A stretch of 64,000 bases of DNA from Pocillopora damicornis (Eukaryota): positions 124,001 through 188,000 of the forward strand of contig NW_020846700.1 in assembly GCF_003704095.1 (NCBI RefSeq). The letters are read 5' to 3'. Below are positions 55,998 to 58,578 of this stretch, one piece after another. Each line of letters opens with the position of its first letter. Within the stretch, counting starts at the first letter, position 1. The position numbers and the translations under genes are program-made. The notes under the pieces were generated by a model. It searched no databases. It was not told where the DNA came from and saw only the letters and a list, made by a program, of their open reading frames with translations.

Positions 55998-58578
55998 ATG
56001 TTTCGCGTTGTGTGTCGCCGTCTCTGGGTGAACAGGCGCTGTCAAGCGGGTATCAATTGCCGTTTTGAAGTCACTCAAAGGTTCTTTACCAGTGAAGACA
56101 GCCCCATTGAAGCTGAGGGTTACAGGGACTTGCAAGTTCTTACGAGACATCAAAAACAGCAAGTGAGTGCATCCATTCGACTTATTTGTATATGCGAAAC
56201 GGGTGTTGGGAAACCTGGATGTTACCAATTGGAAGACTAGTGTTACTTTGGGCGAGTTGGGTACATTGGTCAAAATTGGTGTGGTTTTAATATTTACAAC
56301 TTCATAAATGCAACCAACGTCGCACCTTGTGTTTATTCCAGGAACCATGCACGTTGTATCTGAAGGACATTCACCTGCGTTTGTGACCTTTAAGAGCCAG
56401 ACGTTTTTTTCTAAAATCTTATCTCGAATGTTAACTTAAGCAATGTCTTGGTTAATTCAGTGATATCCAAACAAAGTCCCTTGGGCATAGAGGCCACTTT
56501 TAAGTGTGTTTTAAAATTTGTCTAAATAAATGGATCAATGATCTGAAAGTTTGTTGATTAAGTTTAATTATCAATTACTAATATTGCTAGTATGAAAGAC
56601 TTGGGTATCTAGTGGTTCCAGATGTCTTCAGCAAGGACCATATTGAACAAATGAGGAAAGAGTTGGATGGATATATTGAACGGCAAGTAATAAAATTTGG
56701 CTCTTTATTCCAAGGAAGTGCATGTTCTGTAAAAGACCAGAGACATTAATGTACCTGACACATGAATGTTTCCTGGGCAACCATTGTTGTAATGATTTAA
56801 ATTTAGAGTGACAAACTACCCAAAAGACCACTATCATAAATAGTGGGTCCAATTATTAATCTTCTGTATGCATATAATGTAGACTTTTGCTAAAGTGTAA
56901 GACTAAAAAGGCTAAAAAGGCCAACATCAACAAGGTATATTATTTTTTTAGAGGAAAACATGTTCTGACTTCCTCTTTTTATATCTTCTCCAGTTCTCGC
57001 AAACTCAAACAAACAAATCATTTGTTTGTTCTGGACCGACAGCATACTGAAAATAAGCCTATCCTACTAAGGCTTCGTTGTATTTCAAATCACAGCAAAA
57101 TTTTCCTGGACACAATTTGTGATGCTAAGTTGGTGGAAATTACATCTGATCTGGTAAGGCAGAGTCAACCTCATGAAAATTTACACAAATTATTTTCATA
57201 ATATTTGATCACTTATTACAATTGCTCAAGCTGTAGTAATGTGGAAACTGTTCTCCACTGAACAGTGAAACATTAAACCAACTGGTCAAAGAGTTGTCAG
57301 AAAAGTTACACATTAATCCGACATAAATTTGTGAACTTTAAGAGCATAATATGTCAATAATGTTAATGGTCAACCAAACATTATGTTTGTGTGTAGTCAG
57401 ACCTTAAAATTTTAATCTGCCTGTTTGTGAATGATCAACTGACTCAAACTCCAAAGGGAAACACTCCAAGATAGTTAAAAGGAGCAGGCATTGGAGCTGG
57501 AGTCAAAATAAACTATGAAAAATATGACATTTAAGAAAGATATCAATTTGAGTTCTAGCAAGCAAGAGGGTTTCAAATAACAAAGTTTGAAATAGCAAGG
57601 TTAACCAATTTAACTATAAAAATCATAATTTATTTTTTTTGTGTGTGAAATCACTTCTGTTTCAATTTATGTTTAGTATATGCCAGTTATGTGATTTCTA
57701 AGAAAGTTGTTGTTTTCCCCTGTTTAAGATTGGTCCATCAGTGCGTTACATAAATCAAGAGAAAGTCAACTTGAAACCACCAGAAAGTAGTACCTCAGTT
57801 ATCAGATGGCATCAGGATTGGGCATTTTTCCCCTATACAAATGATAGTCTGGTCACTGTTTGCATAGCCATTGATGACTCTACCAAGGAGAATGGTAAGC
57901 TCTCTGATGAGCCATTCTTTCTCAATAGGGCAGAGGTATATACTGCCTTAAAAATAAGTTGAAAATGTGGTTATCCCAAAACAGAGCTACCTATTCAACT
58001 TAAGTATTGTGATCAACAGATTCTATTCATGGAAGAAAATTATAAGAAACTATGTGTGGAATGATTCTGATCAATGCATGTTTCTGATAAAAAATTTAAT
58101 TGTACCACTGATTTTAATTTAAACAGGATGCCTTCAAGTTATCCCGCGTTCACATAAAGGTCCCCTATACTCACACTTCCAAGACAATGCATTTATATCT
58201 GCTATAACAGACCCTGCCTTAGACTCTAACTCTGCAGTCCATGTTGAAGTTCCTGCAGGTGGGGTGTCCTTTCATCATGGCTTCACAGTCCATGGTTCTT
58301 CTGCCAACATGTCTAGACATTATCGCCGTATGCTTTGTTTTAACTACAGCTCAGCAGACAATTGGCCTCTTATTGGTGTTGGAGGGCATGAGTTTACTAA
58401 CCATGGTCCAGTAGACTGGGAAAGATACTGTTCCACTGTGGTTAAAGGCAAACCCAGTTTATTTCCTCGCATGCAAGCACTGCCTGTCTCTATTCCCATT
58501 CCTTTTGATTCTGGTTATGACATTTATGAACATAGTAAATCTAGTGATGTAAGTGATCCTGAAAAGTGGGAAGCATGA
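55998..58578 (+). CDS. PhyH-family Fe(II)/2-oxoglutarate dioxygenase with Arg-rich N-terminal presequence (5 exons)
   Basis: Exons 55998-56162, 56591-56692, 56994-57153, 57729-57894, 58127-58578 join in frame. Motifs YERLGYLVVPDVFS, KVNLKPP..WHQDWAFF (HxD), IAIDDSTKENGCLQVIPRSHKG, FHHGFTVHGSSANMS..RR (distal His, 2OG-binding Arg). Confidence 0.92.
56693..56993 (+). other. GC-AG intron in the PhyH-family gene
   Basis: CG|GCAAGT donor gives YIER|SRKL. The neighbouring GT donor would frameshift into a TGA. Confidence 0.85.

What the first reader, a model, noticed from the sequence alone, without database searches (positions are those of the whole stretch)
55998..58578. Bacterial-type PhyH dioxygenase with four introns and an apparent mitochondrial presequence (candidate domesticated horizontal transfer)
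Seen: a complete 5-exon ORF with an intact HxD...H triad and 2OG-binding Arg. Exon 1 encodes an Arg-rich leader with no acidic residue in its first 23 aa (MFRVVCRRLWVNRRCQAGINCRF). The C-terminus (KWEA) is not a PTS1, and RL-x6-QA misses the PTS2 spacing by one residue. From recalled family knowledge, the signatures do not resemble metazoan PHYH or PHYHD1 (PHYHD1: SMYIFKQP..PHQDASFLYTEP). They resemble a proteobacterial PhyH subfamily: KxNLK..WHQDWAFxPxTND, SHKGPxYxH, YxxADxWPLxG, and a tail GxPxxxPRxxxxPVxxPxP..IYE. Inference: a bacterial-origin or patchily retained ancient enzyme retargeted to mitochondria, with unknown substrate. It sits among conserved housekeeping genes directly after a transposon nest. 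Introns and host-like CpG depletion argue against contamination.
Basis: partly seen in the sequence, partly recalled or inferred. Interest (0 to 1): 0.7.

Follow-up and report, generated by a model that had tools for sequence, protein, structure and literature searches.

The report
Bacterial-type mitochondrial oxygenase shared by cnidarians
A spliced coral gene encodes an iron-dependent oxygenase whose close relatives occur in corals, an anemone and hydroids and whose next relatives are mostly bacterial; it was likely acquired once by an early cnidarian and is predicted to work in mitochondria on a small molecule that is not yet identified.

Summary
The gene is real: five exons, 344 codons, intact Fe/2OG residues. 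It is neither PHYH nor PHYHD1, which lie elsewhere in the genome. Its relatives form one cnidarian clade (99/97) splitting into Anthozoa and Hydrozoa-like halves, within a multi-phylum bacterial subfamily that includes hypophosphite dioxygenase HtxA (32% identity). It lies outside the proteobacteria-rich branch, so a proteobacterial donor is not supported. A basic, acid-poor leader is present in 13 of 14 long members; a leaderless paralog shares all four intron positions. Best reading: one ancient transfer before the anthozoan-hydrozoan split, mitochondrial targeting, then duplication. The donor is unresolved: a Chromera-type group is an unsupported sister (51/18), and a single eukaryote clade is only marginally rejected. 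Substrate unknown; bacterial neighbours point to small polar acids, not hypophosphite. Undescribed in my searches, but old transferred enzymes in cnidarians are a known kind.

The parts
55998..56162 (+). Exon 1 (aa 1-55): start codon, basic leader, start of the catalytic domain
   Evidence: joint 56162/56591 GT..AG in run X1; in-frame stop upstream
55998..56087 (+). Predicted mitochondrial presequence, about aa 1-30, net charge +6, R-3-type motif at aa 28-31 (cleavage inferred)
   Evidence: the R-3 rule itself is recalled knowledge
56591..56682 (+). Exon 2
   Evidence: Pfam PhyH positions 1-31, E 0.004
56683..56993 (+). Intron 2, non-canonical GC-AG, phase 2; the paralog has a GT donor at the same position
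   Evidence: joint in runs X1 and X11
56994..57153 (+). Exon 3, carries the subfamily-invariant R112
57729..57894 (+). Exon 4: Q149/K151/N153/K155 strand (57756-57776) and iron ligands H167 (57810-57812) and D169 (57816-57818)
   Evidence: Pfam PhyH E 1.9e-9
58127..58578 (+). Exon 5: distal iron ligand H250 (58291-58293), R261 (58324-58326, inferred 2OG-binding), cnidarian-type insertion and C-terminal tail, stop
   Evidence: Pfam PhyH E 7.5e-13
53980..55844 (.). Element with 48-nt perfect terminal inverted repeats ending 154 nt upstream of the ATG (context, not part of the gene's origin)
   Evidence: pair I6
56429..59565 (-). Probable last exons and long 3' UTR of the convergent FRA10AC1-like gene overlapping exons 2-5 (strand inferred from a CT..AC joint)
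   Evidence: joint 58867/59459 in 4 of 4 runs; single contigs 56429-58867 plus 59459-59565 in X9 and similar in X12

Best explanation
This is a spliced coral gene for a PhyH-fold Fe(II)/2-oxoglutarate dioxygenase of a cnidarian-wide clade, likely acquired once from a bacterium before Anthozoa and Hydrozoa split and predicted to be imported into mitochondria, where it would hydroxylate a small polar, probably anionic metabolite. Shown: gene structure, splicing, catalytic residues, one cnidarian clade, shared intron positions among coral paralogs, recurring basic leader. Inferred: bacterial donor, mitochondrial import with cleavage near aa 30, O2/2OG turnover to succinate and CO2, and a catabolic role on a sugar-acid-like or similar small acid. 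The window copy keeps the ancestral R112 and K-x-N-x-K strand, so it is the copy most likely to retain the ancestral activity; the leaderless paralog changed that strand and likely acts elsewhere in the cell on another substrate.
For: Cnidarian rows form one clade in every full-length tree: 99 (197 rows), 98 and 96 (73 rows), 99/97 (44 rows, mixture model), with Anthozoa 100/97 and Hydrozoa-like rows 100/99. Named members are Pocillopora, Stylophora, Montipora, Porites, Oculina, Desmophyllum, Nematostella, Hydra, Hydractinia, Clytia. The next hits are prokaryote-type proteins at 41-46%, and the rows used as root whose organism is named are bacterial. Of the 150 best of 543 hits of the exhaustive 50%-cluster search, 21 score best against cnidarian rows, 4 against the Chromera group, 8 against the AKL group, 117 against other rows; 10 of 12 fragments placed fall inside the cnidarian clade. 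One clade of all 25 eukaryote-like rows is rejected (p 0.012). Nearest Atlas clusters of the leaderless Hydractinia protein are bacterial by features and by structure. Leader: 13 of 14 long members have at least 4 R/K and at most 1 D/E in aa 1-25 against 4.9% of 4751 mature windows; 8 of 14 carry an R-3-type motif against 24 of 3450; 2 of 69 prokaryote-type rows scored have an extension of 20 or more. All 4 introns match the C2713 paralog in position and phase. R112, K151, N153, K155, H167, D169, R261 are kept as in 38 of 38 bacterial rows. Bacterial neighbours outside the HtxA branch are repeatedly TRAP/ABC/MFS transporters, LacI/GntR regulators, sugar-acid dehydratases, lactonases, SDRs and transketolases.
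Against: The clade is not nested inside a named bacterial group: it sits in a basal polytomy of the subfamily. Its sister in the best trees is the Chromera-type group, unsupported (51; 51/18). Cnidaria + Chromera group + AKL group as one clade is not rejected under LG+G4 (p 0.25) and only marginally under the mixture model (p 0.046). An oyster contig was annotated with the same enzyme name through XP_002944900, a namesake I could not fetch. Leaders are homologous rows, not independent trials. Gene neighbourhoods are heterogeneous and none comes from a supported sister group. Spliced joints were seen in only 3 of 8 runs. The Oculina ortholog record P0299 has Gly in place of the iron-binding Asp.
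Confidence: 0.52

Rival explanations
1. The gene reached the cnidarian ancestor from a microbial eukaryote (alveolate or algal line related to the Chromera-type PhyH-methyltransferase fusion proteins) rather than directly from a bacterium.
For: Cnidaria + Chromera group is one side of a branch in the best trees; P0262 is named Chromera velia; both groups carry an insertion after the WPL motif; chlorophyll-c algae and dinoflagellates are listed as sources of many anthozoan transfers (PMC4878875 Table 1).
Against: Support is 51 and 51/18 only; the three Chromera-group proteins scanned are fused to a methyltransferase domain, which no cnidarian member has; the insertions differ in length and some prokaryote-type rows have one of the same length as Cnidaria; in the C-terminal tree the groups are apart.
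Confidence: 0.18
2. An old eukaryotic gene, inherited vertically and lost in most lineages, possibly still present in unsampled animals.
For: At least three eukaryote-like groups exist in the subfamily, four rows ending in the peroxisomal-type AKL; their union with Cnidaria without P0245 is not rejected under LG+G4 (p 0.25); enzyme of the same name annotated in an oyster study.
Against: Union rejected with P0245 (p 0.012) and marginally without it under the mixture model (p 0.046); the AKL group lies inside the proteobacteria-rich branch (98, 94/94); no named non-cnidarian animal among the hits listed or among the 24 clusters looked up; many losses required.
Confidence: 0.17
3. It works like HtxA: it oxidises hypophosphite or another reduced phosphorus compound (or a phosphonate) in the coral.
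For: NCBI names the cnidarian proteins probable alpha-ketoglutarate-dependent hypophosphite dioxygenase; the htx/ptx-operon protein shares the whole core; NCBIfam's best, sub-threshold hit for 2 of 3 full-length homologs is methylphosphonate hydroxylase; cnidarians are rich in aminophosphonates (recalled).
Against: Only 32% identity; Cnidaria + HtxA clade rejected (p 0.015; p 0.046 with L013 added); the HtxA rows have E114, R212 and H219 where the window has R, F and S; phosphite/phosphonate transporter neighbours were found only beside members of the HtxA/L013 branch or loci matching like them (L095, L028, L139); the core residues are shared by the whole subfamily and do not mark the substrate.
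Confidence: 0.1
4. Contaminant, pseudogene or mis-spliced model.
For: Needs a GC donor; 5 of 8 runs show only unspliced cover.
Against: Four spliced joints, 80% identity to a full-length Oculina ortholog, shared introns with the paralog, host-like CpG depletion and eukaryotic neighbours.
Confidence: 0.02

Closest known systems
HtxA, hypophosphite/2-oxoglutarate dioxygenase (represented by the gene in the htx/ptx-type operon of L095; function per PMC6629693 passage)
   Same: Same PhyH subfamily; shared K-x-N-x-K strand, WHQDWAF motif, WPL motif and C-terminal tail; source of the NCBI name.
   Different: 32% identity; different branch (AU p 0.015 and 0.046); different residues at 114, 212, 219; no leader, no introns; lies in a phosphite operon.
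Ectoine hydroxylase EctD (TIGR02408; PDB 3emr, 4mhr)
   Same: Best PDB sequence match of the clade profile (E 9e-25); Gln aligned to EctD Gln-127, a product contact (PMC6890836 passage).
   Different: 52 bits at best against a cut-off of 336; Thr-149/Trp-150 contacts align to F172/F173.
Animal PHYH (phytanoyl-CoA 2-hydroxylase) and PHYHD1
   Same: Same Pfam PF05721 fold; top Foldseek hits for the model of the Oculina ortholog, 19-21% identity.
   Different: The host has its own PHYH-like gene on C4168 and PHYHD1-like gene on C2038 (names from recalled motifs); 25% identity to the PHYH-like exon; no peroxisomal signal.
Old horizontally acquired metabolic genes of Anthozoa (PMC4878875, Table 1, 41 genes)
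   Same: Shared by several anthozoans, host-like phylogeny inside the clade, non-animal nearest relatives.
   Different: No PhyH or dioxygenase entry by name in that table (three entries are only 'predicted' or 'hypothetical'); this clade also spans Hydrozoa, and it fails that paper's criterion of nesting in non-metazoans at 90% support or more on my trees.

Membership tests
PhyH-type Fe(II)/2OG dioxygenases (PF05721) | Pfam match above cut-off and double-stranded beta-helix fold | tested here: met
   Exons 4 and 5 score 38.5 and 49.7 bits, cut-off 22; ortholog model pTM 0.72 matches PHYHD1, PHYH, EctD
PhyH-type Fe(II)/2OG dioxygenases (PF05721) | HxD...H iron triad and distal Arg | tested here: met
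   H167, D169, H250, R261
PhyH-type Fe(II)/2OG dioxygenases (PF05721) | Fe/O2/2OG-dependent turnover | not testable with these tools
   needs assay
HtxA (hypophosphite dioxygenase) orthologs | Groups with HtxA in the tree | tested here: not met
   AU p 0.015, 0.046; 32% identity
HtxA (hypophosphite dioxygenase) orthologs | Residues peculiar to the two HtxA-type rows (E114, R212, H219 in window numbering) | tested here: not met
   R, F, S in the window protein; functional meaning of these positions is inferred
HtxA (hypophosphite dioxygenase) orthologs | Oxidises hypophosphite to phosphite | not testable with these tools
   needs assay
HtxA-related bacterial PhyH subfamily (broad) | Invariant R112, K-x-N-x-K strand, WHQDWAFxPxTN, WPL and PR tail motifs; falls inside the subfamily branch | tested here: met
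   branch support 96, 91/92
Animal PHYH / PHYHD1 | Orthology and peroxisomal signal | tested here: not met
   separate host genes; no PTS1/PTS2; these genes were not put in the trees
EctD | TIGR02408 cut-off and product-contact residues | tested here: not met
Mitochondrial matrix proteins with cleavable presequence | Basic, acid-poor N-terminal extension with R-2/R-3 site | tested here: met
   (composition only)
Mitochondrial matrix proteins with cleavable presequence | Import and cleavage in cells, or trained predictor call | not testable with these tools
   no TargetP/MitoFates, no localisation data
Horizontally acquired animal gene | Integrated in host genome with introns and host neighbours, expressed | tested here: met
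Horizontally acquired animal gene | Nested with strong support inside a donor clade | tested here: inconclusive
   basal polytomy; sister unsupported
Horizontally acquired animal gene | Absent from outgroup animals and choanoflagellates | tested here: inconclusive
   no named non-cnidarian animal; searches incomplete; namesake untested

The most novel reading that the evidence does not exclude
A Cnidaria-defining enzyme: one bacterial oxygenase captured before the anthozoan-hydrozoan split, fitted with a mitochondrial leader and four introns, kept for over 500 million years and split in hexacorals into three paralogs with different active-site strands and compartments, carrying out an oxidation absent from other animals (on a sugar-acid-like, betaine-like or phosphorus compound of the cnidarian diet or symbionts).
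Probability: 0.3. Interest if true: 0.65.

Novelty: new member of a known kind. Interest (0 to 1): 0.42.

Why it matters
It adds a phylum-wide, apparently undescribed enzyme to the short list of old foreign genes in cnidarians, one with signs of full domestication (introns, targeting leader, paralogs that differ in leader and active site). It also shows that the database name 'hypophosphite dioxygenase' on these coral, anemone and Hydra proteins is a best-hit label, not orthology. Hydra, Clytia and Nematostella each have a named member, so knock-out metabolomics could give the first function for a large uncharacterised bacterial subfamily as well.

Tried and rejected
GT donor at 56687 with the 56993 acceptor: frame broken. 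Careful mixture tree on 73 rows did not finish in two runs; the quick mixture tree and a careful 44-row tree were used instead. In the C-terminal tree P0036 was mis-cut by my pattern and gave a spurious long branch, and most AKL rows dropped out; P0036's place there is ignored. The leader length printed for the window protein was wrong (pattern slipped) and was redone. Search of the own genome with the third coral paralog P0003 found only the two known loci: no third copy seen, not proof of absence. Atlas with the full Nematostella protein returned eukaryotic PhyH clusters by features and a bacterial cluster by structure; not used as evidence. First ORF pick for neighbourhoods failed on 8 of 29 loci through shadow frames and was redone; 75 and 76 neighbours were scanned, the second being 76 of 137 listed. 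No conserved operon emerged, so no substrate could be named. Five of 8 RNA runs gave no spliced joint, and exon 1 lacked cover in 6 of 8; contigs cannot show level or strand. Transposon nest as the vehicle of transfer: rejected, the gene predates it. Cross-species synteny with DCTN1 and FRA10AC1 could not be tested. Three look-ups in earlier findings returned nothing. Two papers wanted for HtxA operons and EctD contacts were not held.

Full report
Observation. The five exons 55998-56162, 56591-56682, 56994-57153, 57729-57894 and 58127-58578 give one open frame of 344 aa. Intron 2 has a GC donor; the nearby GT donor does not work with the same acceptor. Assembled RNA contigs join all four introns in run X1, introns 3 and 4 in X2 and introns 2 and 3 in X11, that is 3 of 8 runs laid, from 2 studies. 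The other five runs cover exons 2-5 without splicing; in X9 and X12 one contig runs from about 56430 through a CT..AC joint at 58867/59459, best read as the long 3' UTR of the convergent FRA10AC1-like gene (strand inferred). Exons 4 and 5 pass the Pfam PhyH cut-off; H167, D169, H250 and R261 are intact. Dynactin and Fra10Ac1 matches flank the gene and CpG depletion is host-like. The gene is a real host gene.

Host and paralogs. A second copy lies on contig C2713. Its exons give stored protein P0009 letter for letter, a record that its source names Pocillopora damicornis, so the host is a pocilloporid stony coral. The paralog is 49% identical, has all 4 introns at the same position and phase, and starts without a leader behind in-frame stops. 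A genomic fragment of a third coral paralog (L137) shows frame breaks at the same four places by eye. PHYH-like and PHYHD1-like genes lie on C4168 and C2038 (names from recalled motifs), at 25-43% identity over short stretches.

Distribution. Named close relatives are all cnidarian: stony corals, Nematostella, Hydra, Hydractinia, Clytia. Behind them come prokaryote-type proteins at 41-46% identity, from Pseudomonadota, Armatimonadota, Actinomycetota, Acidobacteriota, Rokubacteria, Latescibacterota and others where named. The exhaustive search with exon 5 found 543 clusters at E up to 0.001 and listed 150; 21 score best against cnidarian rows, 4 against a group containing Chromera velia P0262, 8 against a group in which four rows end in AKL, 117 against other rows. 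Only P0262 of the protist-like rows is named; the rest are judged eukaryotic by extensions and termini. The unnamed rows P0044, P0130 and P0303 fall with the hydrozoans, but their phylum is not known. The word-based searches miss members (one search lacks P0036 and P0003), so absence from other animals is suggested, not shown. One oyster study lists a contig under the same enzyme name through XP_002944900 (PMC4133350, one passage); its relation to this clade is untested.

Phylogeny. From 503 domain hits, 406 long enough were clustered to 197 rows, then 73 and 44 rows. The cnidarian clade has support 99, 98, 96 and 99/97; Anthozoa 100/97 and Hydrozoa-like rows 100/99, as vertical descent inside the phylum predicts. 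Nematostella groups with the leaderless coral paralog (99/90), so the window lineage split off before the anemone-coral divergence and the leader was lost later in that paralog (inference). The clade sits in a basal polytomy of the subfamily, outside the proteobacteria-rich branch (94/94) that holds HtxA and the AKL group. AU tests: all 25 eukaryote-like rows as one clade rejected (p 0.012); without P0245 not rejected under LG+G4 (p 0.25), marginal under the mixture model (p 0.046); Cnidaria + AKL group not rejected (p 0.31); Cnidaria + Chromera group is the unsupported best-tree sister (51; 51/18); Cnidaria + HtxA rejected (p 0.015; 0.046). Groups were named after the first tree was seen, which weakens these p-values. 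The subfamily is overwhelmingly bacterial and eukaryote-like rows arise in at least two places, which favours transfer; the donor is not identified.

Targeting. The window protein has 46 residues before the aligned core, net charge +6 in aa 1-30, first acid at 24 and an R-3-type motif at 28-31. Of 14 members with a long N-terminus, 13 have at least 4 R/K and at most 1 D/E in aa 1-25 (background 235 of 4751 windows) and 8 have the motif (background 24 of 3450). Four of the 18 members examined have no leader. Of 69 prokaryote-type rows scored (of 102 tried), 2 have an extension of 20 or more. No PTS1 or PTS2 is present. A mitochondrial leader ancestral to the clade is the simplest reading; it is a prediction from composition.

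Mechanism. The ortholog model (pTM 0.72, mean pLDDT 69, leader and tail disordered) matches PHYHD1, PHYH, proline and leucine hydroxylases, SnoN and EctD at 18-24% identity, so no solved structure gives the substrate. By established family chemistry, Fe held by H167/D169/H250 and 2OG held by R261 would activate O2 and hydroxylate a bound substrate. R112 and the K151-x-N153-x-K155 strand are invariant in 38 of 38 bacterial rows, both HtxA-type rows and all 7 hydrozoan-like rows; the leaderless paralog replaces all three strand residues and the third paralog has His for Asn. Q149 aligns to EctD Gln-127, a product contact. The plasmid gene of L095 heads a phosphite ABC transporter, phosphonate dehydrogenase and LysR cluster and represents HtxA, which oxidises hypophosphite to phosphite (PMC6629693, passage); it is 32% identical and differs at positions 114, 212 and 219. 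Other bacterial members lie beside TRAP, ABC or MFS transporters, LacI/GntR regulators, sugar-acid dehydratases, lactonases, SDRs, transketolases and MurQ. I therefore favour catabolic hydroxylation of a small polar acid (about 0.35-0.4 for this class), over reduced phosphorus (0.1); the rest is open.

Literature. Ten full-text searches showed no paper on this gene; two searches returned none, and the 25 listed of 428 papers had no occurrence of the PhyH term. Table 1 of PMC4878875 (section read) lists 41 transferred anthozoan genes, none named PhyH or dioxygenase. Passages of the Clytia genome preprint, PMC12225738 (TauD family, a different fold subfamily) and PMC6005172 do not mention it. 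Supplements were not read, and the 2010 Hydra genome list (recalled) was not seen; either may hold it.

Verdict. A real, domesticated, cnidarian-wide member of the HtxA-related PhyH subfamily, likely mitochondrial and likely of bacterial origin, with unresolved donor and substrate. New member of a known kind; interest 0.42.

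Noticed in passing
window 56429-59565: The convergent FRA10AC1-like gene appears to have a 3' UTR of about 2.4 kb that overlaps exons 2-5 of the dioxygenase on the opposite strand; a natural antisense pair if strand is confirmed.
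   Followed up: partly
window 53980-55844: Element with 48-nt perfect terminal inverted repeats ends 154 nt before the ATG; the spliced X1 contig ends exactly at 55844, so the transcript may start inside the element, or the contig simply breaks at a repeat. A second inverted-repeat element lies at about 52989-53812.
   Followed up: no
G000:C2713:119262-124327 (L003/L004): Leaderless paralog that has lost the otherwise invariant K-x-N-x-K strand but keeps the iron triad: candidate for a changed substrate.
   Followed up: partly
P0262, P0232, P0235, P0201: Chromera velia and three unnamed proteins carry this PhyH domain with a long C-terminal part, a class I methyltransferase in the three scanned, one also with adenylate kinase.
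   Followed up: partly
P0357, P0241, P0270, P0284: Unnamed eukaryote-like members ending in AKL, a peroxisomal-type signal, nested in the proteobacteria-rich branch: probably a separate acquisition sent to another organelle.
   Followed up: partly
P0299: The Oculina ortholog record has Gly where the iron-binding Asp should be: sequence error, allele or inactive copy.
   Followed up: no
L092, L013, L028, L139: A sister branch of HtxA (99/98) whose members lie on mobile DNA, two beside phosphonate ABC genes: possible second hypophosphite or phosphonate oxidase type.
   Followed up: no
window 58913-59488: High-copy repeat inside the last intron of the FRA10AC1-like gene (hundreds-fold contig depth).
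   Followed up: no
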